64,000 nt of DNA, from the NCBI RefSeq assembly GCF_030028105.1, contig NC_092370.1, positions 119,190,221 to 119,254,220 of the forward strand. The letters run 5' to 3'. The number at the start of each line of letters is the position of its first letter. The stretch's first letter is position 1. Position numbers and translations under genes: made by a program. The notes under the pieces are model-generated. The model was given only the letters and a program-made list of their open reading frames with translations. It searched no databases and was not told the origin of the DNA. Shown here one piece after another: positions 1,364 to 63,300 of this stretch. The DNA is from Mobula birostris (Eukaryota).

Positions 1364-1595
1364 ACAAACAAGAGAAAATCTGCAGATGCTGGAAATCCGA
1401 GCAACACACACAAAATGCTGCAGGAACTCAGCAGGCCAGGCAGCATCTAGGAAAAGAGTACAGTCGACGTTTCCAATGCTGGCCTAAAACATCAACTGTT
1501 TATTCATTTCCATAGAAGCTACCTGACTTCCTGAGTTCTTACAGCACTTTGCATGTTTCTCTGGGTTTCCGGCATCTGCAGAACCTCTTGTGTTT
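1364..1595. mobile_element. Fold-back short element derived from the Penelope-like terminus
   Basis: Left arm ACAAGAGAAAATCTGCAGATGCTGGAAAT...CAGTCGACGTTTC resembles 44628-44737; right arm ...CATCTGCAGAACCTCTTGTGTTT is an imperfect reverse complement. Confidence 0.8.
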
Positions 1596-7384: not shown

Positions 7385-7494
7385 AGACCGCAGATCCTAG
7401 AAAATGGAGCAACACACAAGACACTAGAGGAACTCAGCAGTTCAGGCAGCATCTACGGAGTCAACATTTCAGGTCGAGTCCCTTCATCTGGACT
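7385..7494 (-). mobile_element. Penelope-like 3' terminal fragment with mutated hammerhead core
   Basis: GGAACTCAGCAGTTCAGGCAGCATCTA...AGTCAACATTTCAGGTCGAGTCCCTTCATCTGGACT is similar to 44690-44761. Confidence 0.7.
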
Positions 7495-31050: not shown

Positions 31051-33937
31051 TGATAAATCAGAATCAGGTTTTTTTTTTCACTGACTTAAATGACATAAAA
31101 TTTGTTTTGTGGCAGCAGGACAGTGCAGAGATATAAAATTGCTTTAAATTACAAAAATTATATATTTTATAATTATATAAAAGGAAGGAATAATGAGGGA
31201 TTGTTCACGGGTTCATGGACCATTGAGAATCTGATTTTGGAAAGGAAGAAGCTGTTTCTGAATCATTGAGTGTGAATCTTCTGGCTCATATACCTTCTCT
31301 GCAATAGTAGTAATGAAAAGATGATGTGCTCTGGATGGTGAGGATTCTTTGTAATGGAAGCTGTCTTCTTGGAGCACTACCCCTTAATGATATCCTTGAT
31401 GGTGTGTAAGTTTGTGCCCATGACAGACATTAGTTCTGTGCATAGACCAGCGAAGACGAGTTTGTTCTTCCTGGAACACAGGAGGTTGTGAGGAGATCTC
31501 CAAGGAGTCTATATTCACAAACGGTATACTCTGTGGATGGAGAGCACCTTTGCACACTTGTGGAGAGGTGAATCAAGGAACAGAGATGAAGGTGATTGAC
31601 AAAAAAAAAGATCATAAAGTGAGGAAAAGCATTCTTTACAGAGCAAATGGCGAGGGCTCAGAGTGCACTCTCCAGTGGTACTGGGGCAGGTTCGACAGTG
31701 GCATTCAAAAGGGAGCTGTATAAATACTGTATCTGAAAGGAAAGAATTTGCTGGGCTCTGAGTTTGGACCAGTACAAACTCGACAGGCTGAATGACCTAC
31801 TTTTGTACAGCTACCATTTTATAAGGCTGTAAATTGGCAGCTTCATTTTGCATATTACAGGGACTAGACTTCTGAAATAGCTTCATTGGTCTTGAATGCT
31901 CAGGGTACCTAAGGATTGGAGAAATGCTGTAGAAATGCAGAGTTCACTCATTCATGACTTAGTTTTAAAATTTTAATATAGATTTCCACTTCTGAGACTG
32001 AAACCAATAGTCCAGACCAGCCCCTTTCATTGAGTACAGCACTCTACCAATCTCATTCCACAAGTTAATCTGTTTGACAAATTTTGCAGGCTTAAAAATA
32101 AACACAGCTCCATTTCCTAAAATGGTTTGTCTGTAATTGACTCTTTCTTGAAGTGATAGTCTAGTATCAGATTAAAGTTTTCAAAAAAAGCAATACTGGG
32201 CAGGCAACAGCTTCTATTCAAAGCCTATAATTTTTAAACATGTCATTCTTGGATCAGACAACTATTGGCAAAGATATGACTGAACAAGGTTACGATGAGC
32301 AGTTTTAAAACTATTACAAGTCAGACTGATTGCACCAGATATGGATGTTGGAATTTTGTCTGTGATTTCAGTCTTTCTTTTTCCCTTTCAATGAGTGATG
32401 AGTAAGAAGCTGATGACGTGAGTCTTTGGCCATGAGAAGACTGTATATATGGTTGGAGACTCACAATAGATCTCAGTGAGTGTTTTAGGATAAAGGCTGT
32501 CTCATTATCTCTTCAAAGTATCCATGTGGTATCTCTGTTAGTGAAGTTTGTAATCCTGTTTAGAACAGGACTGGGCCATGAGTGAGTAAAGATCAAACAT
32601 TGTACTGCTCTCTGTAGACAAGACAGATTAAGGAAAGCTTTGTCCAGCTATTGCGATTACTTTCAGAATACACGAGTATGAAGGCAAACGTGGTACATCT
32701 CACAAGATGAATGATGAGCTAAAAGCAATGCCTATGTTACATAAGGATTCTCTTCTTGAGAAATGTCTGCAAACTGATTTATCTTTAAGTCCAAAACACG
32801 TGTATGTGTATTGTGTTGCTTTACATTCACTTACTATAGTTCATTATTTCATAGAACATAGAACACGCCAGCACAGGAACAAACCTTCCAGACCATTATG
32901 TTGTGCCAAAATAATAACGCAAATCATGCCCAGCAAATCTAATCCCTTCAATTAAATTCCATTGAATAACCCCCTAACATTACCTACAATTAAACTGTAT
33001 ATACTATAATCATTCATTAATGAATACTATGAAATATTTTATGATTCGTATTAGTATCTTGTAAAATGCTTGGGAGAATCTGCATAGAGTCAAATTTCTG
33101 TAAGTCAGGTCATTTGTAAACTGGGAAGATCAGTTTATAAATTCAGTTTATAACTTGAGTGTTATGAACATGAAAAATAGGAGCAGGACCATTCAGCCTC
33201 TCAAAGCTGCTCTAGGATCCAATGGAGATTATGGCTGATCTTCCACTTCTCTGGCACTTTCCTGCTCTTTCTCCATAACCCTTACAGTGGTGCTGGTCAA
33301 GTCTGCCAAGGTATCAGATGTTCTCCTATATCGAATGTAATGGCATCCACTCAAAACCAGAGAGCAGGGCCTCAGCTGAACACCTCACTCTGTGTGCCTA
33401 ACAATGACCAAATCCTGCTCCTGCTGTATATCCATCTCAGCACAGGGGCCACCACCTTTCTAATGTAGATGCAGCAGGGCAGCCCACTGAACTGCACACA
33501 CCATTAATACGCCTTGGTTTAACAACACCTTACACTAACAACATGCCCCTAGATTCCTGCGTCAGCCAGATGCATTTCAGATCAACACTTATAGAGTTTA
33601 TAGAGTCATACAACACAGAAACAGGCCCCTTGGCCCAACTCATCCATGTCAACCAAAATACCCACATGAACTAGCCTCATTTATCCCCATTTACCCCATA
33701 TCCCTCTAAAAGTTTCCTATTCATATAATTCTTTCCCTTCCCACCTTAAACCTATGCCCTCGAGTTTTTGATTCCCTTTCCTGAGCTAGAAAGACTGTCT
33801 ATGCCCCTCACAATTTTGTGCATCTCTATAAAGTCACTCCACAGTCTCTGTGCTCCAAGCAAAACATGATGAGAGCATCACGTGTATTATAGGAAGGGCA
33901 TGAAACAAACTGAAATCTTCTCACTAGAACACTATAT

Positions 33938-36170
33938 TGTTCCCTCCACAATACTCTGCATCAGCAACCTCGAGGACAGTGAGGAAATGGTCGGAGGAGG
34001 CTTATGAGGCGCTCCAGGGTTGTTTTGAGGTGACAGACTGGCAGGCACTCTGTGAGCCACATGGAGAGGATATTGATGGGCTCACAGAGTGCATCACTGA
34101 TTACATCAACTTCTGTGTGGACTGCAATGTTCCGGCAAGAACTGTCCTTTGTTATACAAATAGCAAGCCATGGGTGACAAAGGACATTAAGGACATACTG
34201 AACACTAAAAAGAGGGCGTTTAGAGATGGAAATAGGGAGGCACTGGGGTCAATACAGAGGGACCTGAAAGCCAGGATCAGGGAGGCTAAAGACAGGTACA
34301 GGAGGAAGCTTAAGTGGAAACTCCAACAGAACAACATGAGAGAGGTCTGGAGGGGGATGAGGACCATCACTGGGTTCCAGCAAACTAGCAACAGAGGAGC
34401 GGAAGGCAATGTGGACAGGGCCAATGAACTTAACCTGTTCTTGAACAGAATTGACATTGTGGCCCCTGCCCATCTCCCACATGAGCCATCTGTTGTCGAC
34501 CCCCAACCAACACATATTCCACTCTCCCCTCCTACCCCTCCTCACAGTCCCTCACCCTGCTCTCATGACTATACCCCTTCCCCACACGAAGCCACCACGG
34601 TGGGCTTCATAACTGAACAGGTGAGAAGACAGCTGAAACATCTCAACCCAAGCAAGGCTGTAGGACTGGATGGTGTCAGTACCAGGGTGCTCAAAGCCTG
34701 TGCCCCTCAGCTATGTGGAGTACTTCGCCATGTATTCAACCTGAGCCTCCGGAGGGTTCCTGTACTGTGGAAGACGTCCTGCCTTGTCCCTGTGCCGAAG
34801 ACGCCGTGCCCCAGATGCCTCAATGACTACAGACCAGTGGCATTGACCTCCCACATCATGAAGACCCTGGAGAGACTTGTTCTGGAGCTGCTCCAGTCTA
34901 TGGTCAGGTCACATTTAGATCCCCTCCAGTTCGCCTACCAGCCCCGACTAGGAGTTGAGGATGCCACCGTCTACCTGCTGAACCGTGTCTACGCCCACCT
35001 GGACAAGCCAGCGAGCACTGTGAGGGTCATGTTTTTTGACTTCTCCAGTACGTTCAACATCATCCGCCCTGCTCTGCTGGGGGAGAAGCTGACAGCGATG
35101 CAGGTGAATGCTTCCCTGGTATCATGGATTCTTGATTACCTGACTGGCGGACCACAGTACGTGTGCTTGCAACACTGTGTGTCCGACAGAGTGGTCAGCA
35201 GCATTAGGGCTCCACAGAGGACTGTCTTGTCTCCATTTCTCTTCACCATTTACACCTCGGACTTCAACTACTGCACAGAGTCTTGTCTCTTCAGAAGTTT
35301 TCGGATGACTCTGCCATAGTTGGATGCATCAGCAAGGGAGATGAGGCTGAGTACAGGGCTACAGTGGGAAACTTTGTCACATGGTGTGAGCAGAATTATC
35401 TGCAGCTTAATGTGAAAAAGACTAAGGAGCAGGTGGTAGACCTGAGGAGAGCTAATGTACCGGTGACCCCTGTTTCCATCCAGGGGTTCAGTGTGAATAT
35501 GGTGGAGGATTACAAATATCTGGGGATACGAATTGACAATAAACTGGACTGGTCAAAGAACACTGAGGCTGTCTACAAGAAGGGTCAGAGCCGTCTCTAT
35601 TTCCTGAGGAGACTGAGGTCCTTTAACATCTGCCGGACAATGCTGAGGATGTTCTACGAGTCTGTGGTGGCCAGTGCTATCATGTTTGCTGTTGTGTGCT
35701 GGAGCAGCAGGCTGAGGGTAGCAGACACCAACAGAATCAACAAACTCATTCGTAAGGCCAGTGATGTTGTGGGGATGGAACTGGACTCTCTCACGGTGGT
35801 GTCTGAAAAGAGGATGCTGTCTAAGTTGCATGCCATCTTGGTCAATGTCTCCCATCCACTACATAATGTATTGGGTGGGCACAGGAGTACATTCAGCCAG
35901 AGACTCATTCCACCGAGATGCAGCACAGAGCGTCATAGGAAGTCATTCCTGCCTGTGGCCATCAAACTTTACAACCCCTCCCTTGGAGGGTCAGACACCC
36001 TGAGCCAATAGGCTGGTCCTGACTTATTTCATAATTTACTGGCATAACTTACATATTACTATTTAGCTATTTATGGTAATATTACTATTTATTATTTATG
36101 GTGCAACTGTAACGAAAACCAATTTCCCCCGGGATCAATAAAGTATGATTATGACTATGACTATGACTAC
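33938..36170 (+). mobile_element. Young 5'-truncated Rex1 LINE (RT with one frameshift near 35290)
   Basis: NDYRPVALTSHIMKTLERL, DPLQFAYQP, MFFDFSSTFN, KFSDD, RLYFLRRLRSF; (ATGACT)n tail; possible CTATAT TSD. Confidence 0.95.
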
Positions 36171-39105: not shown

Positions 39106-40250
39106 ATAGAAACATAGAAACATAGTAAATAGGTGCAGGAGTAGGCCATTCAGTCCTTCGAGCCTGCACTGCCATTCATTACGGTCATGGCTGATCATCC
39201 AACTCAGAACCCTATACCTGCCTTCTCTCCATACTCCCTGATCCCTTTAGCCACAAAGGCCTTATCTAACTCCCTCTTAAATATAGCCAATGAACTGGCC
39301 TCAACTGTTTCCTGTGGCAGAGAATTCCACAGATTCACCACTCTCTGTGTGAAGAAGTTTTTCCTCACCTCAGTCCTAAAAGGCTTCCCCTTTATCCTCA
39401 AACTGTGACCCCTCATTCTGGACTTTCCCAACATCGGGAACAATCTTCCTCATCTAGCCTGTCCAATCCCTTTAGAATTTTATACGTTTCAATCAGATCC
39501 CCCCTCAATCTTCTAAATTCCAGAGAGTATAAGCCTAGTCGATCCAGTCTTTCATCATATGAAAGTCCTGCCATCCCAGGAATCAATCTGGTGAACCTTT
39601 GTACTCCCTCTATGGCAAGAATGTCTTTCCTCAGATTAGGGGACCAAAACTGCACACAATACTCCAGGTGTGGTCTCACCAAGCCCTTGTACAACTGCAG
39701 TAGAACCTCCCTGCTCCTGTACTCAAATCCTCTTGCTATGAAAGCCAGCATACCATTCGCCTTTTTCACCGCCTGCTGTACCTACATGCCCACTTTCAAT
39801 GACTGGTGTATAATGACACCCAGGTCTCGTTGCACCTCCCCTTTTCCTAATTGGCCACCATTCAGATAATAATCTGTTTTCCTGTTCTTGCCACCAAAGT
39901 GGATAACCTCACATTTATCCACATTAAATTACATCTGCCATTAATTTGCCCACTCACCTAACCTATCCAAGTCACCCTGCATCCTCTTAGCATCCTCCTC
40001 ACAGCTAACACTGCCGCCCAGCTTTGTGTCATCCGCAAACTTGGAGATGTTGCATTTAATTCCCTCATCTAAGTCATTAATATATATTGTAAACAACTGG
40101 GGTCCCAGCACTGAGCCTTGCGGTACCCCACTAGTCACTGCCTGCCATTCTGAAAAGGTCCTGTTTATTCCCACTCTTTGCTTCCTGTCTGCCAACCAAT
40201 TCTCTATCCACATCAATACCATACCCGCAATACCGTGTGCTTTAAGTTTG
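39106..40250 (-). mobile_element. Young CR1 3' fragment
   Basis: [39 protein letters not shown]; (TTTCTATG)n tail. Confidence 0.95.
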
Positions 40251-40284
40251 CTTTAAGATGATTGCCGATATCCTCACATTCTTT

Positions 40285-42020
40285 TCAAGAGCAACAGGAT
40301 AACTAGGGAGATGGTGGGACCACTCAAGTGTAAAGAGGGGAACATTTGCTTGGATGCGGAGACTGTGTACCTTGTGTAATGAGCACTTTGCTTCAGTATT
40401 TAGCAAGGAAAAGGATATGGAGGACCAGGAGATCAGTTAAAGTGTTTAGAGGTCAAGGTGGAGGAAGTGATGGGCCTCTTAATAAGTATTAAGGTGGATA
40501 AGTAGCCAGGGCCTGATGGAATTTACCCCAGGTTATTGAAGGAGGTAAGAGATGAGATTTCTGGGCCCTTAAACAGTATCTTAGTGTCCTCTCCAGCCAC
40601 AGGCAAGATCCCGGAGGACTGGCTAGTGTTGCATCTCTTGTTGTAGAGAAATCGCTGGAGAAAATTCTTAGGGATAGGGTAGATGAGCATTTGAAAACCC
40701 ATGGCCTAATTAGGGAGAGACAGTATGGCTATCTGCATGGCAGGTTGTTTCTTACCAACTTGATTGAGTTTTTTGATAAGGAGACAAGAGAGATTGATGA
40801 GGGTAGAGCAGTGGATGTTGTCTATATGGATTTTAGTATGGTGTTTATTAGAGTCCCTCATGGGAGGATAATCCAGAAGATTAAGACGTGTGGGATCCAT
40901 GGCGAATTCGCTGTTTGGATTCAGAACTGTCTTGCGCATAGAAGACAGGGTACAGTAGTTGAAGGGTCTTATTCGAGCAGAGGTCTGTAATTACTGGTGT
41001 TCCACAGAGGTCTGTGCTGGGACCGCTGCTGTTTGTGATGTAAGTAAATGACCTGGATGAAAATGTAGATGGGTGGGTTAGTAAGTTTGTGGATGATACC
41101 AAGATTGCTGGAGTTGTGGATATTGTAGAAGACTGGCAAAGAATACAACGCGATATAGATCATTTGCAGATATGAGCTGAGAAATGGCAGATGGAGTTTA
41201 ACCCAGATAAATGTGAAGTGTTGCATCTTGGTCGAGCAAATGCAATGAGACAGTACACTGTTCAGGGCAAGATCCTTAATAGTGTTGCTGAGCAGAGAGA
41301 TCTTGGGATCCAAGTTCATACTCCTTGAAACTGGCTACACAGGTCAATAAGGTGGTCAGGAAGGCTTATGGAATGCTTGATTTTATTAGTTGAGGCACTG
41401 AGTTCAAAAGCCAGGAGGTTATGTTGCAACTTTATAAAAGTCTGGTTAGGCCACATCTGGAGTATTGCGTACAGTTCTGGTAACTGCACTATAGGAAGGA
41501 TGTTGAGGCTTTGGAGAGGATACAGAAGAGGTTTACCACAATGCTGCCTGGTTTGGAGGGCGTGAGCTGTCACGAAAGGCTGGATCAACTTGGGTGTTTT
41601 CTCCGGAGCATCAGGGGCTGAAGGGAGGCCTGAAAGAGATTTACAAGATTATGAGAGGCATAGACAGGGTTGACATAGAGTACCTGTTTCCCAGGGTTGA
41701 AATGTCTAATACCAGAGGGCATGCATTGAAGGTGAGAGGGGGTAGACTCAATGGGGATGTGAGGGGTGTTTTTACTCAGAGACTTGGATGCCTGGAATGT
41801 GCTGCCTGGTATGGTGGTAGAGACAAATACATTAGAGGCTTTGAAGAGATGTTTGGATAGGCACATGGATGTAAGGAAGATGGAGTGATAGGACATGGTG
41901 TAAATAGGAGAGATTAGTGGTTGGAGTTTCTGATTTGATTTTTAGCTGGTTCAGCACAACATTATAGGCTGAGTGGCCTGTTCCTGTGCTGTACTGTTCT
42001 ATGTTCTATGTTCTATGTTC
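40285..42020 (+). mobile_element. CR1 LINE of a different subfamily, 5'-truncated and decayed
   Basis: LTNLIEFF, VDVVYMDFS; (TTCTATG)n tail at ~41996-42020. Confidence 0.92.
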
Positions 42021-43964: not shown

Positions 43965-44235
43965 CATTAGCTGCTCTATCCTTGTAGGCTTCCTTATCTC
44001 TGTAAAGTCCTGTCCTACATCCACCCCTATCTCTGTCAAGTCCTCCAGCTCCTACACCCCTCTGTATCTCTGTAAGCTTTTGTCTTAGACCCCTCAGTAT
44101 CTCTGGAAAGTCCTGTCCTACACCCTTTCCTACACCCTTTCCTATCTCTGTAACCTCCTCTAGCTCCTGCACCCTTTCCTATTATTTCACACCTCCAATA
44201 TCCCTCCTTATTATTATAAACCAGTCTAGGCCCTA
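43965..44235. repeat. Degenerate minisatellite of a CCCTATCTCTGTAA..CCTCCAGC.CCTACA motif
   Basis: About 7 imperfect 25-35 bp units. Confidence 0.75.
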
Positions 44236-44724
44236 CACTCATTGTGATCTCTTTCTGAAGGGATTGAGGAGGGTAGGGAATAAAGGATGATAGTGTGGAG
44301 AGATGCTCTGGGTTAGAAGAAAGGTAAAGTAGCCATAATATTTTATCAGCAGATAATGGAGAATAGAATGACTGCTGCTTTGCTTTAGAGTGGAAGTGAC
44401 TGTAGTCAAAGTAAAGATACGACAAGCAACTTATCAGTGTGTTCAGATGTTTGCCTTGCATCTCCAACAACTTGGGTTCAATCCTGATCCTTGGAGATTT
44501 CTGTGTGGAGCTTGCATATTCTCTCTGTAACCACCTGGGTTTCTTCTGGATCCTCCAGTTTCCTGCCACATCCCTAAGAAGTGCACGTCTATAGATTTTA
44601 TGGGAATGTGGGGAGAATAAAATATCAAACAAACAGGAATTCTGCAGATGCTGGAAATTCAAGCAACACACATCAAAGTTGCTGGTGAACGCAGCAGGCC
44701 AGGCAGCATCTCTAGGAAGAGGTG

Positions 44725-44762
44725 CAGTCGACGTTTCAGGCCGAGACCCTTCGTCAGGACTA
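44725..44762 (-). ncRNA. Minimal type I hammerhead ribozyme with intact core
   Basis: Minus strand UAGUC-CUGACGA-AGG(GUCUCGG)CCU-GAAAC-GUC^GACUG: helix I UAGUC/GACUG, helix II AGG/CCU, palindromic ACGU as helix III, GUC triplet. Confidence 0.85.
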
Positions 44763-45057
44763 ACTGAAGGAAGAGTGAGTAAGGGATTTGAAAGTTGGAG
44801 GGGGAGGGGGAGATCCAAAATGATAGGAGAAGACAGGAGGGGGAGGGATAGAGCCAAGAGCTGGACAGGTGATAGGCAAAAGGGGATACGATAGGATCAT
44901 GGGACAGGAGGTCCGGGAAGAAAGACAAGGCGGGGGGGGGGACCCAGAGGATGGGCAAGAGGTATATTCGGAGGGACAGAGGGAGAAAAAGGAGAGTGAG
45001 AGAAAGAATGTGTGCATAAAAATAAGTAACAGATGGGGTAGGAGGAGGAGGTGGGGC

Positions 45058-45831
45058 CTAGCAGAAGTTAGAGAAGTCGATGTTCATGCCATCAGGTTGG
45101 AGGCTACCCAGACGGAATATAAGGTGTTGTTCCTCCAACCTGAGTGTGGCTTCATCTTTACAGTAGAGGAGGCCGTGGATAGACATGTCAGAATGGGAAT
45201 GGGATGTGGAATTAAAATGTGTGGCCACTGGGAGATCCTGCTTTCTCTGGCGGACAGAGTGTAGATGTTCAGCAAAGCCGTCTCCCAGTCTGCGTCGGGT
45301 CTCGCCAATATATAAAAGGCCACACCGGGAGCACCAGACGCAGTATATCACCCCAGTCGACTCACAGATGAAGTGTTGCCTCACCTGGAAGGACTGTTTG
45401 GGGCCCTGAATGGTGGTAAGGGAGGAAGTGTAAGGGCATGTGTAGCACTTGTTCCGCTTACACGGATAAGTGCCAGGAGGGTGATCAGTGGGGAGGGATG
45501 GGGGGGACGAATGGACAAGGGAGTTGTGTAGGGAGCGATCCCTGCGGAATGCAGAGAGAGGGGGGGAGGGAAAGATGTGCTTAGTGGTGGGATCCCGTTG
45601 GAGGTGGCGGAAGTTACAGAGAATAGTATGTTGGACCCGGAGGCTGGTGGGGTGGTAGGTGAGGACCAGGGGAACCCTATTCCTAGTGGGGTGGCGGGAG
45701 GATGGAGTGAGAGCAGATGTACGTGAAATGGGGGAGATGCGTTTAAGAGCAGAGTTGATAGTGGAGGAAGGGAAGCCCCTTTCTTTAAAAAAGGAAGACA
45801 TCTCCCTCGTCCTAGAATGAAAAGCCTCATC
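45058..45831 (-). pseudogene. Penelope-like ORF C-terminus: end of RT thumb, Cys-rich linker, GIY-YIG endonuclease (open frame)
   Basis: FFKERGFP, LVLTYHP, CKRNKCYTC linker, VIYCVWCSRCGLLYIGETRRRL..FAEH, VATHFN, EQHLIFRLGSLQPDGMN. Confidence 0.93.
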
Positions 45832-46343
45832 CTGAACATCTACGCTCTGTCCGCCAGAGAAAGCAGGATCTCCCAGTGGCCACACATTTTAATTCCACAT
45901 CCCATTCCCATTCTGACATGTCTATCCATGGCCTCCTTTACTGTAAAGATGAAGCCACACTCAGGTTGGAGGAACAACACCTTATATTCCGTCTGGGTAG
46001 CCTCCAACCTGATGGCATGAACATCAACTTCTCTAACTTCCGCTAGGCTCCACCTCCCCCTCCTACCCCATCTGTTACTTATTTTTATGCACACATTCTT
46101 TCTCTCACTCTCCTTTTTCTCCCTCTGTCCCTCTGAATATACCTCTTGCCCATCCTCTGGGTTCCCCCCCCCCCGCCTTGTCTTTCTTCCCGGACCTCCT
46201 GTCCCATGATCCTCTCGTATCCCCTTTTGCCAATCACCTGTCCAGCTCTTGGCTCTATCCCTCCCCCTCCTGTCTTCTCCTATCATTTTGGATCTCCCCC
46301 TCCCCCTCCAACTTTCAAATCCCTTACTCACTCTTCCTTCAGT

Positions 46344-46381
46344 TAGTCCTGACGAAGGGTCTCGGCCTGAAACGTTGACTG
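46344..46381 (+). ncRNA. Minimal type I hammerhead ribozyme with GUU triplet
   Basis: TAGTC-CTGACGA-AGGGTCTCGGCCT-GAAAC-GTT^GACTG. Confidence 0.8.
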
Positions 46382-47884
46382 CACCTCTTCCTAGAGATGC
46401 TGCTTGGCCTGCTGCGTTCACCAGAATAAAATATCAGACCAGTTTCTGATGGTTGGTGAAAACTGGCTGGGCTGAAGGGTTTGTTTCTGTGCTGTAGGAC
46501 TCTGTGAGTTTATGAATTTGTCTGCCTACATAGCCCCAGCCAAAGGATCATGTCATCTCAAACCTCTCAGGAGTTTTGTAAGAACACTTATTTATCTGAT
46601 GCAGTTCCTGGTGTAACACAGGCAAGCCAGCAACTAGTCTCAAGTGCATTGTGAAAGACTTTCCAGACTTATAGGATACATTGACTCAATGGGTAACAAA
46701 TAATGAAAGCTTGTTAGTTCAAGTATCATTCCAGAAATCTACCTAGGCTACCACATGCCGTACCAGTAACTGTGGAGTGTTAATCTGTTGGGAAAATATT
46801 AAACTAGACCCCATCTACAAGATCCACCCAGCCTTCTACAACAGCTTCCAAAAGACAGTAGGCACAGGGAACATCATTCCTTGCATCCCTCCTGGTCACT
46901 CCTCACCATGAACTGAAAATGGATCTGCAATGAATACTAGTTCTAGATCTGGAGAATCCCTCAGTGAGAGGTACAGGAACCTGAAGGCCTGTACTTAGTG
47001 ATTTGGAAATGGCCTTTTCCATTCTGCCATCAGATTTCTGAACAGCTCAAGAACCTATGAATGCTACATTGTTATTCCTTTTATTAGGACTTTATTTTTT
47101 GTAATTTATAGTATTTTTATGTATTTACATTGCATTTCACACCATATACAGTGAGTGAGTGGTGATAAATCTGATTCTGATTCAACACTGGGCTAATGAA
47201 GATGGCTCACCACTTCCTTCTCCAGTTGGTGGTGAGACAATATCCTAAATAAGCAAAAAGAACAGCTACTTTGTAGGAATTTGAAGAGTGAAGGAATTCT
47301 CCAAGTAATATTTATCCACAAGCAACATCACTAAAAGCAGGCAATTATCTGTCCATTATCTCACAATTGTCTGTGGACTTCAGCTGTGCGCAAATGGACT
47401 ACAAATACAAGCCTCTCCCTTGAACTAATGTCAACCATAAACAGCTGTGTCTGAAAATGAGTGTACATTAGTGGTGAGCTATGAGATTTCCTCATGCAAG
47501 TGTAATATTTGAATTGACACAAAAGGTCTATTTTGTGTATATTTCCCACCAGCCATAGCAACATCACTTCTAGGCTGCTGACTTAGAATGACATATATTC
47601 TCTCCTCACCATCAAAATATCTAACTTAATCAGCATTCCCACCAGTTTTAAGACAAAATGATGGGTAATGGGTGACTTCACTATTACCACAGTCAATGTG
47701 CAGTTCATCTGTTTGGGTTTTCCGACATGGGCCAAAGTCAAAGTCAAGTTTGTTGTCCTGTGCATAAGTACATATACACACAAGTGCAATGAAGAACTTA
47801 CTTGCAAAAGACATCATAACACCATGGACAAAGTAACCTACTATGCTCTATGACACCTCCACTCAGCCACTCTTCCATTGATTT

Positions 47885-48298
47885 TATCGACCTGCTCCCT
47901 GCTCTACTTGGTTTATCCTTATGACTGTGTGACTAAGCACAACTCCAATGCCATATTTAAGTTTTCCAATGAGACCATTGTCATTGTGGTGACGAATTGG
48001 CATACAGGAGGGAGATTGAAAATCTGGCTGAGTGGTGCCACAACAACAACTTCTCGCTCAATGTCAGCAAGAACAAGGAGCTGATTATTGATTTGAGGAA
48101 GAGGAAACCAGAGGTCCATGAGCCAATCCTCATCAGGGCATCTGAGATAGTGAGGGTCAGCAACTCCTTGGTGTTAACATTTCAGAGGATCTGTCCTGGA
48201 TTACGTGTAATGACAATTACAAAGAAAGCACAGCAGCACCTCTACTTTCTTAGATATTTGCGAAAATTCAGCATTTCATCTAAATCTTTGACAAACAC
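47885..48298 (+). mobile_element. Rex1-type RT fragment, truncated at the hAT element
   Basis: YRREIENLAEWCHNNNFSLNVSKNKELIIDLRK. Confidence 0.8.
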
Positions 48299-48299
48299 C

Positions 48300-50823
48300 T
48301 AGCAAGCATTATTTTTATGATTGGTATTAACTTACAGTCATAGACTACAAGATAGTTGTGATGAGAGAGAGAACAAAATGATGCTATTTTGGCTAAGATT
48401 GTTTTGGGAGCCACATCCTTTCCATTAATAAACCATTTGAAATCGAACATTAGCAGACACAAATGTAGACCTAACTAACGAAACGAATTGTAAATGTAAA
48501 TAATACGACTGCACTTAATTTTTATTAGCCTGCTTCCAGCAATAAAACTCAGACAATGGACACAGTTAGCCTCTAATTTTTATTGAAGTGATCACATTTA
48601 CAATAATAGAATAGTCAGATTATGAATGAATCACAATGTTATGACACAATATTTCATAATGCATTTTTGCTTACTTGTTGAGGTGCATCGAAGAGTGTCA
48701 CTCATTTTTCACTTGCTGCTTCCAGACACCTGATATCTCTTGGCTTTAACCAGTCTGTCAACATCAGGGACCAGTTTCTGGGCAGTTGTGAGTTTCATAA
48801 TGTCATTTAGATGTCCATGTGTCAGCTGCGAGCGCAGTTTGGATTTGTTAATGTTCATTATAGAGAACGCTTGCTCACAGAGATATGTTGTCCCGAACAT
48901 GCAAAGGATCTTTGAGGCAAAGTCTGTCATCTTGGGGTACATCGGTCCCAGGTATTTATAGAATGAGTCCAGACCCACAGTCTCAAATTTATATTTCAAA
49001 GCCGAGTTACACTGAATTTCAATTAGTTCCATTTGGAGTTCCTCCGGCACATCTGATGCTGCGTTGACGGCAAACGGCGAGCAAAATAGTGAGAATTCCT
49101 TCTCGAGCTGAGTGAAGACTTGAAAACAATTCTGAGACTCACTTTTCAGCCGTGATATTTTGTCCTTGTACCTGTCCATGTTGTCATTACTCCCACGAGC
49201 GACACGCACAGACTGCAAAGAGGGGAAATGAGCTGGGTTTCTCCAGGATAGTTGCATCTCCCACAGGTCTAATTTAATTTGAAAGGCACGATTGACGTCG
49301 TAGTATTCCATAACAAGTTTGTTGCGGCCTTGCACGTTAACATTAAGCACATTTAAGTGCTCTGTTATATCCACCAAAAATGCACTGGCTTCCCTCTCTT
49401 GTTCATGAATAGTCCAATTTCCGCACGTAATTGAAAAAAACGTTTGAGCACAACCCCTCTGCTCAACCAGCGGACTTCAGTGTGGTAGGGTAGGCCGTGT
49501 CCAATATTACTTTCGGACAAAAGGGTGTCAAATTGCTGATGGTTGAGTCCCTTGGCTCCAATAAAATTAACCGTTTTGATTACTACATCCATGACATTGT
49601 CCATTTTCAGGCTACTGCTATATAACGTCTCTTGGTGTATAATGCAATGAAAATTCCAGAGTTCCTGCTCTGGATTCCCTGTCTGAACTTTCTCACTGAG
49701 TTTCACAACAACACCTGCATTTTCCCCGACCATGGACGGTGCGCTATCTGTTGCCACGCTGACAGCGTGACTCCAGTCAACCCCCAGTCTGTCCAAGGCC
49801 TCGATGAGGCTGGAGAAAATGTCGTTCGCCGTGGTGGTGTTTGTCATGGGCACCATCTCCGCAAACTCCTCGGTGACGGTCAAAGATGCATCAACGCCAT
49901 GAATAAATATTCCCAAATGAGCTACATCAGTCACGTCGGTGCTCTCACCAATTGCAATAGAGAAGGCAATAAATGACTTTTCCTTGTCTTTTAGTTGACT
50001 GTTCAAATCTCCTGCAAGATCCCCGATTCTCTCTGCCACAGTATTTCTTGACAAGCTGATATTACCAAAAGCCTGTCTCTTCTCTGGGCACACCAGCTCA
50101 GCTGCCATCAGCATGTATGCTTTGATGAATTCCCCCTCTGAGTATGGCTTCGACGCAGCAGCTATTTTGTTGGCAATAATATAGCTGGCCTTGACAGCTC
50201 CATCATGAGTCTCTCAACGTTTGGTGAACACTGATTGCTGTTTTTTCAGAGCTGCTTCAAGCTCGTTTACCTTTTGCGTTCTGAGTCGTCCTGCATACTT
50301 GTCATATTTTTCTCTGTGTGACATCTTGTAGTGTTGTTTGATATTGTACTCTTTTGCCACAGCCACATGTTGCGAGCATATCAGACACACAGGTTTGCCG
50401 TTGACCTCACAGAAGAAAAAGCGATCTTTCCAATTATCATTGAATATCCGACCTTTGATGTCAACTTTTCTATTCGTGGAAAGCATTTTGAACCACAGCA
50501 GCAAACAGTCTCAATCTTGCTACAGGTGTTACTTACCTGAGTACTCTGTGTGTTTATATGTGTCTGATGACATAAGTGGGGCCCTAGTGGTCTTCAGTGC
50601 AGGGTGGTAGATGCTTATGCACAGCGGGTGGTTAACTGCACCCTATTGTTTTCTAATTGCACACAACAAGCTGCCGGCACAGCAGGCAGCACAGACAGCG
50701 GTGGGAGAGAGAGTGGCTGCCTTACAGATACAGAATAAATGGTTGTGAATATGGTTTTTCTCCCCCAAATCATCCCGCAGGCTGGATTGGACCCCTTCGC
50801 AGGCCGGTAGTTTGACACCACTG
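48300..50823 (-). mobile_element. SPIN/GTF2IRD2-like hAT (Charlie/Buster) transposon with a nearly full transposase pseudogene (50504-48709)
   Basis: BED finger (W..RFFF...KPVCLIC...KEYNIKQHY), SLSRNTVAERI, GESTD, ATDSAPSM, HCIIHQE, VRWLSRG, MFGTTYLCEQAFS, KSKLRSQLT; 5' TIR CAGTGGTGTCAAAC at 50823; other TIR not found. Confidence 0.93.
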
Positions 50824-51174: not shown

Positions 51175-51925
51175 CAAACTCCCTGAAAGTGGCTGCACAA
51201 GTTGACAGGGTGATAGAGAAGGCCTGTGGTATGCTTGCCTGTATTAGTCGGGACACTGAGTTCAATAGTCGGAAAGTTGCATGCAGCTTTGTAAAACTCT
51301 AGTCACATCTAGAGCATTGCATTTCATTATAGGATGGATGTGGAGGTTTTGGAGACAGTGCAGAAGAGTGTTACCGGGCTGTTGCTTAGAGTAGAAGGCC
51401 AGTACTATAAGGAGAGGTTGGACAAATTAGTGTTGTTTTCATGCAGCATCAAAGGCTGAGTGGGTATCTGATCAAGGTTTATGAGATTATGAGGGGCATA
51501 GATGGAGTAGAGAGCTGGTATCTTTTATCCAGTGCCAAGATGTCTTATACTAAAGGGCATGCATTTAAGTGAAGAGGAGGTTAAATTCAAAGGAAATGTG
51601 TAGGGCAATTTGGTTTCTCACACAGAGTGATGGGGGACGTGAAATGAACTGCCTGGGGTATTGCTAGAGGCAAATATGATAGCAATATACACAAAATGCT
51701 GGAGAAACTCAGCAGGTCAGGCAGCATCGAAGGAAAAGAGTACAGTCAACGTTTTGGGCTGAGACCCTTTTCTCTTGTTTGCAAATATGATAGTGCTGTT
51801 TAAGAGGTTCATAGAGAAGCATGGGATGAAGGGATTTGGATGTTGTGGAGGCCAATGGATTATTTTAGTTAATTCGGTATAACGTATGGTGCCCGTTCCT
51901 CTGCTGCACTGTTCTATGCTCTATG
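51175..51925 (+). mobile_element. Decayed CR1 3' fragment
   Basis: Colinear with 41320-42020; ends GTTCTATGCTCTATG. Confidence 0.85.
51683..51780. mobile_element. 98-bp Penelope-terminus insertion with inverted structure and 13-bp TSD
   Basis: GCAAATATGATAG at 51670-51682 and 51781-51793; insert is the terminus fragment plus the inverted end TTCTCTTGTTT. Confidence 0.85.
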
Positions 51926-60309: not shown

Positions 60310-63300
60310 AGTGTAGGGTTCCCCCGTGGCCGTTTACCTCAGCAACAAGTGTGCCCCTTTGGGTATTGCTGGTGGAGATGACCAATCAGGGCACAGCAGC
60401 AGCAGCCAGGGAAGTGGCAGCTCGGCCAGCGCTAAGACTCAGAGAGAAAGAGTAAATTCGGGCAGAACAATAGTGACAGCAGACTCAACAGTTAGGGGAC
60501 AGACAGCAGATTCTGTGGTTGCGAAAGAGAAGCCAGAATGGTGTGTTGCCTCCTGAGTTCTTTCCACGATATCTCAGAGCGGCTGCAGAAGGTTTTCAGG
60601 ACAAAGGGTGAGCAGCCAGAAGTCGTGGTGTACATTAACACCAATGACGTAGATAGAAAGGGGGAAGAGGTCCTGGCCAATGAGTATAGGGAGTTAGGGA
60701 AGAGGCTGAGAAGCAGGACCTTCAAGGTAGTAATCTCTGGATTACTTCCAGTGGTATTATCTGGTAGTCAGGGCAGGAATAGGATGATAGCACAGATGAA
60801 TGAATGAATGGTTGAGGGAGTGGTGTAGGCCGCAGGGTTTCTGGATCATTGGGTCTCTTCTGGGGAAGGTATCGACCTGTTCAAAAAGGATGGGTTACAC
60901 CCGAACCAGAGGGGGATAAATATCCTCATGGGAAAACCTGCTTGAGTTTTTTTTTGGGGGGGGAAGGATTTAAACTAACCTATCAGGAGGATGGGGCAGT
61001 TGGTATACAACTAGATGCAGTGTTCACTGTGATTGTCAAGAAGGACAAGCAGATGATAGGGTGAAATTGCAGTCAGTGGGATGAGTTGCAAAGTAACATA
61101 GGGACAAAATCGAAAAGGGTGGACGAATATAGGATTAAAGGTGTCAAAATTGAATACATGCAGTATACGGAATAAGGTAGATAATCCTGTAGCACAGTTA
61201 GAGATTGGTAAGTATGACGATGTGGGCCTCACTGAGTCATGGCTGAAAGAAGATCATAGTTGGGAGTTTAACACTCAGAATCAGATTTGTTATTACCGGC
61301 ATGTGTCATGAAATTTGTTAACTTAGGAGCAGCAATTCAATGCAATACGTAATATAGAAGAAAATAAAATAATAAATAAATAAATAAATAAATACACCAA
61401 TTACAGTATACATATATTGAAAAGATTAAAAATCATGCAAATCAGCACTGGTGCACCTCAGGGATGTGTGCTTAGCCCACTGCTCTACTCTCTGTATACC
61501 CATGACTGTGTGGCTAGGCATAGCTCAAATACCATCTATAAATTTGCTGATGATACAGCCATTGTTGGTAGAATCTCAGATGGAGACCAGAGGGCGTACA
61601 GGCGTGAGATATGCCAACTAGCGGAGTGGTGCCGCAGCAACAACCTGGCACTCAACGTCAGTAAGCCGAAAGAGCTGATTGTGGACTTCAGGAAGGGTAA
61701 AACGAAGGAACACATACCAATCCACATAAAGGAGTCAGAAGTGGAGAGAGTGAGCAGTTTCAAGTTCCTGGGTGTCAGGATCTCTAAGGATCTAACCTGG
61801 TCCCAAAATATCGATGCAGTTATAAAGAAGGCAAGATAGTGACTATACTTCATTAGGAGTTTGAAGAGATTTGGCATGTCAACAATACACTCAAAAACTT
61901 CTATAGATGTACCGTGGAGAGCATTCTGACAGGCTGCATCACTGTCTGGTATGGGGGGTGGGGGGGGCTACTGCACAGGACCGAAAGAAGTTGCAGAGGG
62001 TTGTAAATCTAGTCAGCTCCATCTTGGTTACTTGCCTACAAAGTACCCAGGACATCTTCAAGAAGCGGTGTCCATTATTAAGGGCCTCCAGCACCCAGGC
62101 ATGCCCTTTTCTCACTGTTACCATCAGGTAGGAAGCACAGAAGCCTGAATGCACACACTCAGCAATTCAGGAATCACTTCTTCCCCTCTGCACCTAGTAT
62201 CAAAAGGAGGCAGGTAGACAGAGGGGGTGGGGTGCCTCTGTTGGTAAAAAATAAAATAAAATCTTTAGAAGGTGCTGACATAGGATGGAAAGATGTAGAA
62301 TCTTTGGAGAAAATAAAAAGGCAAAGAGACCCTGATGGAAGTTATATATAGACCTCTGAACATTAGCCAGGCTGTGGGCTACAAATTACAATGGGAGATA
62401 GAAAAGGCATGTAAAAGGAGCATTGTTGCATTAGTCATGGGGGATTTCATTATGCAGGTAGATTGGGCATATGAGGTTTGTGTTGGATGTCAAAAGAGGG
62501 AATGTGTAGAATGCCTACGAGATGGCTTTTTAGAGCAGCTGGTGGTTGAACCCACTTGGGGAACGTCAATTCTCGACTGGGTGTTATGTAATGACCAGGC
62601 TTAATTAGGGAGCTTAAGGCAAAGCAACCCTTAGGAGACGGTGATCATAATGTGATAGAATTCATCCTACAGTTTGAGAAGGAGAAGCTAAAGCCATATG
62701 TATCAGTATTACAGTGGGGTAAAGGGAACTACAGAGGCACAAGAGAGGAGCTGGACAAAGTTGATTGGTCGAGGACGCTAACGGGGAAGGGTGCCGAACA
62801 GCAATGGTTGGGGGTTCTGGGGACAATTCAGAAGGCACAGGAAACATACATCCCAAAGTTGAAGAAGTATTCTAAAGGGAGATTGGGGCAACCATGTTTG
62901 ACAAGGGAAGTCAAAGTCGGCATAAAAGCAAAAGAAAAGACATAAAATATAGCAAAAATTAGCGGGAAATTAGAGGATTAGGAAGCTTTTAAAAATCAAC
63001 AGAAGACTATTAAAAAAGCCATAAAAAGCCAAACTGAAATATGAAGGTAAGCTAGCCAGTAATATCAAAGAAGTAACCAGAAGTTTTTTCAGATATATAA
63101 AGAGTAAAAGAGAGGCAAGAGTAAATATCAGACTACTGGAAAACAGAAAAGGAGAGGTAGTAATGGAAATAAGGAAATGGCGGATGAACTGAATAAGTAT
63201 TTTGCATCAATATTCACTGTGCAAGACACTAGCAGTATGCCGGGTATTTGAGTGTGTCAGGGGACAGAGGTTGGAAAAGTTGCTATTACTAAGGAGGAGG

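What the first reader, a model, noticed from the sequence alone, without database searches (positions are those of the whole stretch)
44628..46422. Penelope-like insertion forming a ~590-bp inverted repeat with a hammerhead ribozyme on each strand
Seen: 44682-45272 and 45832-46424 are reverse complements (about 97% by eye) around a ~560-bp spacer. One exact 14-bp TSD brackets the whole structure, so it arose in one integration. The inverted arm stops ~54 nt short of the true 3' end. Known: Penelope-like elements (PLEs) have pseudo-LTRs that can be inverted and carry minimal hammerheads. Inference: unlike L1 twin priming, the two arms duplicate the same sequence, implying second-strand priming on a second pseudo-LTR copy or a second RNA. 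Read-through transcription from either direction would give a long dsRNA hairpin, a possible endo-siRNA or ADAR substrate against the family.
Basis: partly seen in the sequence, partly recalled or inferred. Interest (0 to 1): 0.7.

Follow-up and report, generated by a model that had tools for sequence, protein, structure and literature searches.

The report
Ordinary mirror-arm Penelope retrotransposon insertion
This is a real but ordinary dead copy of a Penelope-type jumping gene in its well-known mirror-image layout, shared by about half of the sampled copies of its family in this genome; its only added value is a hint that the two mirror halves were likely copied from two different RNA templates.

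Summary
In detail: 591-nt arms, 97.6% alike, one exact 14-bp TSD, and a minimal hammerhead motif on each strand. It is a 5'-truncated endonuclease-bearing Penelope-like element (Neptune-type linker motif) with a head-to-head inverted arm that lacks the 'tail'. This layout is described in PMC8557442 and PMC3846280. It is common here: 51 of 96 position-ordered copies have it, and the tail 21-mer has 40,559 exact matches. Only the arm length (3 of 96 overlap by 500 nt or more) and the arm's end (-41; most end at -17 to -34) are somewhat unusual. Added here: a 4-nt microhomology joins the arms; sister arms differ at family-polymorphic sites 68 of 552 times against 5 expected from mutation; and in 39 of 95 units simple fold-back is geometrically impossible. 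This favours priming from both nicks on two templates. The siRNA/ADAR idea is untested, and in a read-through RNA the hammerhead is predicted to be locked in the duplex. This scan noted the same layout before in other genomes.

The parts
44614..44627 (.). Target-site duplication, left copy (14 bp)
   Evidence: exact repeat of 46423-46436; family TSDs are mostly 12-15 bp (52 of 61 are 12-16)
44628..45835 (-). Main, tail-bearing copy: 5'-truncated 3' third (about 1.2 kb of a 3.5-kb unit) of the Penelope-like element
   Evidence: 97% to other genomic copies; unit length 3515 nt in L169
44628..44681 (-). 'Tail': 54 nt present only on the main copy
44725..44762 (-). Minimal type I hammerhead motif, family-majority sequence, predicted cut GUC between 44730 and 44729; no loop 3, so predicted to work only as a dimer
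   Evidence: sequence; commonest of 99 variants, 71 of 246 motif matches in the fetched loci; descriptor from PMC4209133 passages
45058..45835 (-). 3' end of the ORF: end of RT/thumb, C-x4-C-x2-C linker, GIY-YIG endonuclease with CCHH residues; stop at 45058-45060; no start, no RT core
   Evidence: translation; collinear with the 1042-residue frame of L174, which hits GIY-YIG and RVT_1 weakly
45273..45831 (-). Spacer between the arms: the part of the main copy that the inverted arm does not repeat
45832..45835 (.). 4-nt microhomology (CTGA) at the head-to-head junction
   Evidence: the family sequence leaves the window sequence after 45835 and before 45832 (loose ends)
45832..46424 (+). Inverted, tail-less arm (element positions -630 to -41, counted from the last base of the CTGCAGA motif near the 3' end)
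46344..46381 (+). Second minimal hammerhead motif; cut-site triplet decayed from GUC to GUU (CpG change at 46376)
46423..46436 (.). Target-site duplication, right copy; first 2 nt (AG) also match the element

Best explanation
This is one dead, 5'-truncated insertion of a Penelope-like retrotransposon in the usual head-to-head layout, likely made when the element's enzyme primed reverse transcription from both nicked strands of one target site on two non-identical RNA templates, with the two copies then likely joined at a 4-base match. Shown: element identity, both arms, TSD, one-sided tail, junction microhomology, and the frequency of the layout. Inferred: a staggered cut 14 nt apart; one 3'-OH primes at the tail start site (+13/14) and the other at the tail-less site (-41, an outlier of the -17 to -34 cluster); both cDNAs stop early (1.2 kb and 0.6 kb); their 3' ends pair through CTGA; fill-in makes the TSD. 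The two templates could be two RNA molecules held by a dimer or two units of one tandem transcript; these were not separated. The copy has no RT core and is likely inert.
For: Published: PAc from the green anole nicks and extends both strands, starts at two internal RNA sites whose distance is the tail, and is predicted to be a dimer (PMC11167929). Here: 51 of 96 position-ordered copies carry an inverted arm reaching -80 or beyond, 41 of the 51 with a called TSD. In 39 of 95 two-arm units the tail-less arm reaches more than 10 nt further 5' than the tailed arm, so neither arm can be a copy of the other. Sister arms differ at non-CpG family-polymorphic sites in 68 of 552 comparisons, against 5.4 expected from mutation; at transversion sites 33 of 195 against 0.7; 24 of 31 pairs with six or more such sites differ at one or more. 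This locus differs at 2 of 13 such sites (P about 0.007 from mutation alone). Among 38 clean junctions, 22 overlap by 2 nt or more against 5.9 by chance. CpG-type sites show little sister sharing (95 of 504 discordant, 119 expected if unrelated), which argues against strong homogenisation of the arms after insertion.
Against: Sister arms are much more alike than unrelated arms (68 discordant against 180 expected; 24 against 46 within the closest subfamily), so many units may have used one template or one source locus. For this locus the inverted arm is a subset of the main copy, so geometry does not exclude fold-back, and the case rests on two sites. 57 of 95 junctions carry extra or unmatched bases rather than a microhomology. 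Discordance is higher in the last 300 nt (51 of 303) than upstream (17 of 249), which template switching or later gene conversion from other copies could also give. The biochemistry comes from a Poseidon-clade element, not this family. 59 of the 175 loci were chosen as best hits, not at random.
Confidence: 0.6

Rival explanations
1. Self-priming (fold-back): the first cDNA, or an antisense template, folds back at the CTGA match and copies itself, giving the inverted arm, as hypothesised for head-to-head Penelope repeats.
For: Hypothesis in PMC3846280 (passages). At this locus the inverted arm lies wholly within the main copy and the junction has a 4-nt match. The 23 units whose arms start within 10 nt of each other show only 2 discordant of 69 diagnostic comparisons.
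Against: Impossible in its simple form for 39 of 95 units; the subset class that includes this locus still shows 31 discordant of 278 comparisons; this locus differs at 2 of 13 diagnostic sites.
Confidence: 0.12
2. Both nicks prime on the same RNA segment, one after the other (the RT has no RNase H, recalled), and the differences between arms came later from mutation or gene conversion by other copies.
For: Sister arms agree far more than unrelated arms; L043 has two arms of about 1970 nt with 24 of 25 sites concordant; tens of thousands of donors exist for conversion.
Against: Discordance is about 12 times the mutation expectation, about 45 times at transversion sites; conversion would have had to touch most long pairs (24 of 31).
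Confidence: 0.22
3. Two independent insertions, the second landing back to back at the 5' end of the first.
For: The arms differ at source-polymorphic sites.
Against: A single TSD brackets both arms, there is no second TSD at the junction, and the same asymmetric layout recurs in about half of the copies.
Confidence: 0.03
4. Assembly fold-back artefact.
For: No listed contig spans the whole unit or the inner junction; the contig at the right outer junction (46398-46575, no differences) has only 27 letters inside the element.
Against: 14 differences between arms, unequal arm ends, exact TSD on both sides, and the same structure in many other copies.
Confidence: 0.02
5. The locus works as a hairpin-RNA source (endo-siRNA or ADAR substrate) that restrains the family.
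For: Either strand folds into a duplex with 580-584 of 591 arm bases paired; long-armed units are a minority (8 of 96 overlap by 300 nt or more). Penelope small RNAs are reported in Adineta and Drosophila (PMC3846280 passage). This is a possible side effect, not an alternative origin.
Against: Nothing shows that this copy is transcribed or selected: no host exon in 101 frames of 75 codons or more between 27.7 and 64 kb (short exons would be missed), ordinary decay including a cut-site change, and by extrapolation on the order of a thousand copies with arms this long.
Confidence: 0.08

Closest known systems
EN+ Penelope-like insertions with inverted 5'-truncated pLTR, one-sided tail and TSD (Pen2a_Av and Pen2 scaffold 304 of Adineta vaga, PMC3846280; general scheme in PMC8557442 Fig. 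2 legend; Drosophila virilis Penelope in PMC2377424 Fig. 1 legend)
   Same: Head-to-head inverted truncated copy at the 5' end, tail on one end only, one TSD round the whole unit, overlap at the inverted junction, hammerhead motif in the pLTR.
   Different: No direct 5' pLTR or full ORF here; the asymmetry is 54 nt rather than 30-40; TSD 14 bp rather than 8-10; very high copy number.
PAc (Poseidon of Anolis carolinensis) in vitro, PMC11167929
   Same: Two start sites in the RNA separated by the tail; RNA continues past the tail; minimal hammerhead upstream; AT-rich target.
   Different: This family has the Neptune/Nematis-type linker; the parts of the paper that I read (1 and 2 of 4) do not address how inverted arms form or whether two RNAs are used.
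L1 twin priming (recalled, not read)
   Same: Both nicked strands prime; head-to-head inversion; microhomology at the inner junction; one TSD.
   Different: L1 pieces come from non-overlapping parts of one RNA; here both arms repeat the same 590 nt and the second start lies at a preferred site just upstream of the tail.
Minimal type I hammerheads of metazoan PLEs, PMC4209133
   Same: Conserved core, extra base after position 9, G10.1 pairing with position 11.1, palindromic AC-GU with no loop 3.
   Different: G10.1 pairs with U11.1 in most copies (C in a variant); the two motifs lie on opposite strands, so they cannot form the cis dimer described for tandem repeats.

Membership tests
EN+ Penelope-like element | Single ORF with RT followed by C-terminal GIY-YIG endonuclease | tested here: met
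   1042-residue open frame in the 97%-identical copy L174 hits RVT_1 (E 0.0028) and GIY-YIG (E 0.00097), both below Pfam's curated cut-offs; the window fragment alone has no Pfam hit but is collinear with it
EN+ Penelope-like element | CCHH motif in the endonuclease | tested here: met
   C-x2-C between the GIY- and YIG-like motifs and downstream histidines in the translation; motif name from PMC8557442 passages; read by eye, not aligned to references
EN+ Penelope-like element | Partial tandems forming pseudo-LTRs, direct or inverted | tested here: met
   direct partial tandems in L167, L169, L171, L173, L174; inverted arms in 51 of 96
EN+ Penelope-like element | 30-40 bp tail at one end | tested here: met
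   tail-less ends at -17 to -34 in 58 of 61 TSD-bearing units, tailed ends mostly near +9 to +25; this locus -41, giving 54 nt
EN+ Penelope-like element | Target-site duplication | tested here: met
   14 bp here; 9-16 bp in 61 units
EN+ Penelope-like element | RT groups with telomerase-like PLE RTs in a tree | not tested
   no reference RT sequences were fetched
Neptune clade (or Nematis) | CX2-5CxxC linker between RT and endonuclease | tested here: met
   C-KRNK-C-YT-C upstream of GIY-YIG; the motif is shared by Neptune and Nematis (PMC8557442)
Neptune clade (or Nematis) | Placement by RT phylogeny | not tested
   no tree built
Minimal type I hammerhead ribozyme of PLEs | Core CUGANGA, GAAA, UH with stems I and II and palindromic 15.2-16.2 | tested here: met
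   sequence and motif scan; stem II appears in the fold of the plus-strand copy; no Rfam hammerhead hit at E up to 5
Minimal type I hammerhead ribozyme of PLEs | Self-cleavage | not testable with these tools
   arm 5' ends do not pile up at the cut site: 7 of 147 within -95..-83 against 37 of 147 within -126..-114
L1-type twin-primed inversion | Inverted and direct parts come from non-overlapping segments of the RNA (recalled) | tested here: not met
   the arms repeat the same 590 nt

The most novel reading that the evidence does not exclude
Penelope-like elements routinely build one insertion from two different RNA templates: a dimeric enzyme primes both ends of a staggered cut at two fixed internal start sites, and the two cDNAs are joined head to head. 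The inverted pLTR and the one-sided tail would then be a single mechanism, distinct from TPRT of LINEs and from the published self-priming hypothesis, and readable at genome scale from sister-arm variants.
Probability: 0.5. Interest if true: 0.55.

Novelty: new member of a known kind. Interest (0 to 1): 0.24.

Why it matters
The locus itself is ordinary. The family, with tens of thousands of young two-armed copies, is a ready data set for an open question: how Penelope-like elements make inverted arms and tails. The sister-arm test gives a first count against simple self-priming and for two templates, and is easy to scale to the whole genome. I found no paper making this test in the searches; these cover only the open library, the key reviews in subscription journals were not seen, and no supplements were read.

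Tried and rejected
Rfam search gave no hammerhead hit and only chance matches. PDB sequence search with the full protein gave nothing meaningful. Pfam scan of 101 of 208 long frames (those from 27.7 to 64 kb) found only mobile-element domains, so no host gene or transcription direction was fixed. Sequencing-run search: no RNA holder listed. Laying contigs on 45273-47300 was swamped by other copies; no listed piece bridged the inner junction; a second species label (organism B) holds the right flank at 46467-47122, but whether the element is present there could not be told. The left junction and the empty site were not examined in reads. A test of the empty site through paralogous repeats that carry both flanks in order found one pair at the wrong spacing among 20 left and 19 right hits and was inconclusive. 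The alignment had mis-set coordinates for two of four rows and is used only for the two arms. L200 was dropped from the position-ordered sample because the fetch cut its motif (96 of the first 97 intended; 100 were listed). Rejected: assembly artefact, two independent insertions, L1-type twin priming, and a working cis-dimer of the two hammerheads.

Full report
Observation. The two arms lie at 44682-45272 and 45832-46424 and differ in 14 of 593 aligned columns; the 14-mer AGAATAAAATATCA flanks the unit at 44614-44627 and 46423-46436. Everything between the TSD copies is element sequence. On the minus strand 44628-45835 is the 3' 1.2 kb of one element; on the plus strand 45832-46424 is a second, shorter copy of the same 3' region. 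The copies meet head to head and share CTGA at the junction. Both 3' ends face outward; only the left one carries the last 54 nt.

Identity. The minus strand encodes the end of an RT, a C-x4-C-x2-C linker and a GIY-YIG endonuclease. Longer copies show a 3515-nt unit, partial tandems, and open frames up to 1042 residues with weak RVT_1 and GIY-YIG hits. This is an endonuclease-bearing Penelope-like element with the linker of the Neptune and Nematis clades (PMC8557442, passages); no tree was built. The genome is 4.0 Gb. The flanks look like an old SINE of cartilaginous fishes; that label is recalled and was not confirmed.

How common. An exact 21-mer of the tail occurs 40,559 times and an exact 21-mer just upstream, present in both arms, 75,383 times; the ratio fits many two-armed units, but subfamilies and CpG decay blur it. 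Among 96 copies taken in chromosome order, 56 have an adjacent inverted piece and 51 have one reaching -80 or beyond (positions count from the last base of CTGCAGA near the 3' end); median arm overlap is 76 nt, 8 overlap by 300 or more and 3 by 500 or more. A second position-ordered list selected for a longer tail end gave 26 of 30 by my count, and the 39 best hits about 19. In 61 units with a clear TSD the tail-less end lies at -17 to -34 in 58; this locus (-41) is one of three outliers. So the layout is the rule for about half of the family, and this copy is a long-armed example.

Published precedent. PMC8557442 (passages) describes an inverted 5'-truncated copy next to the 5' end and a 30-40 bp tail on one end. 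PMC3846280 (passages) shows Pen2a_Av with inverted pLTR, tail and TSD, and proposes self-priming. PMC2377424 (passages) notes inverted terminal repeats of variable size in Drosophila virilis Penelope. PMC11167929 (parts 1 and 2 of 4) shows that a purified PLE protein nicks and extends both strands and starts at two internal RNA sites whose distance is the tail. PMC4209133 (passages) defines the minimal dimer-type hammerheads. The preprint 10.64898/2026.07.22.740005 (passages) added nothing on inversions. No supplements were read.

Mechanism tests. Geometry: of 95 two-arm units in 175 loci, the tail-less arm reaches further 5' than the tailed arm in 39, is a subset in 30, starts within 10 nt in 23, and both arms are tailed in 3. 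In the first class neither arm can be copied from the other. Variants: in 76 of the 95 pairs (both arms at least 91% to the reference), sister arms differ at non-CpG, non-homopolymer polymorphic sites in 68 of 552 comparisons; mutation alone predicts 5.4 and unrelated arms 180. In the 25 long pairs closest to the window copy the count is 24 of 122 against 46 unrelated (two sites dropped there by a gap filter). This locus differs at 2 of 13 sites. So a large share of units used non-identical templates, while arms are still more alike than random, as expected if few source loci are active at one time or if some units use one template. Direct tandem pLTRs of five long copies also differ at 12 of 55 sites, so two units of one tandem transcript cannot be told from two RNAs. 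Junctions: 38 of 95 are clean, and these are enriched for overlaps of 2 nt or more (22 against 5.9); 57 carry extra or unmatched bases, some of them mapping noise.

Hammerheads. Both motifs have an intact core, a 5-bp stem I, a short stem II and no loop 3, the form predicted to cut only as a dimer. They lie on opposite strands, so one transcript holds only one in sense, always after its antisense copy; folding places 31 of 31 and 29 of 30 of its bases in the long duplex. Arm 5' ends across the family gather just upstream of the motif (37 of 147 at -126 to -114) and not at the cut site (7 of 147), which hints that the template RNA starts there uncut; two junctions (L174, L232) sit on the palindrome at the cut site.

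Hairpin RNA idea. The fold is real in principle, but nothing here shows transcription of this copy; no host exon was found, and the contigs laid could not be assigned to this locus.

Earlier notes of this scan describe the same layout, twin priming, mismatched arms and the 5'-end cluster in other genomes. They are unchecked AI notes and are not counted as support; my counts were made before reading them, and they led me to two of the papers.

Verdict. A real, ordinary insertion of a known architecture. Interest 0.24, carried mainly by the family-level evidence for two templates.

Noticed in passing
L100-L129, L074-L080, L180-L239 (own genome): Most family copies are tiny (100-250 bp) one- or two-armed units whose 5' ends cluster at the upstream edge of the hammerhead, like run-off products from an RNA start near -120.
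   Followed up: partly
L070-L099 against L100-L129 and L180-L239: Copies whose tail runs a few bases longer are two-armed more often (26 of 30) than copies sampled without that condition (51 of 96); unexplained, may be subfamily or age.
   Followed up: no
L164, L166, L168, L171, L172, L173, L174, L178: Long copies often end at the tail-less site in the sense direction, and in L166 the inverted arm carries the tail, so either arm can use either start site.
   Followed up: partly
L167:3246-6077, L168:3536-6340, L173:3271-6009, L174:3331-6456 (oriented coordinates): Open frames of 913-1042 codons show that the family is young.
   Followed up: partly
L081, L092, L094: Short tandems: pLTR, tail, 80-170 nt of the downstream unit, then another pLTR, with an inverted arm in front; miniature versions of the full layout.
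   Followed up: no
window 48712-50510 (minus): hAT-type DNA transposon remnant (Spin-doc zinc finger and hAT dimerisation domain).
   Followed up: no
window 33928-36008, 39944-40987, 47973-48299, 61384-61836: LINE-type RT fragments; 39944-40252 (minus) and 40556-40987 (plus) are on opposite strands, possibly another inversion.
   Followed up: no
window 1365-1473, 7390-7494, 51681-51769: Three older, 69-84% identical short fragments of related Penelope-like ends.
   Followed up: no
window 43994-44174: Degenerate 33-37 nt repeat about 440 nt left of the insertion.
   Followed up: no
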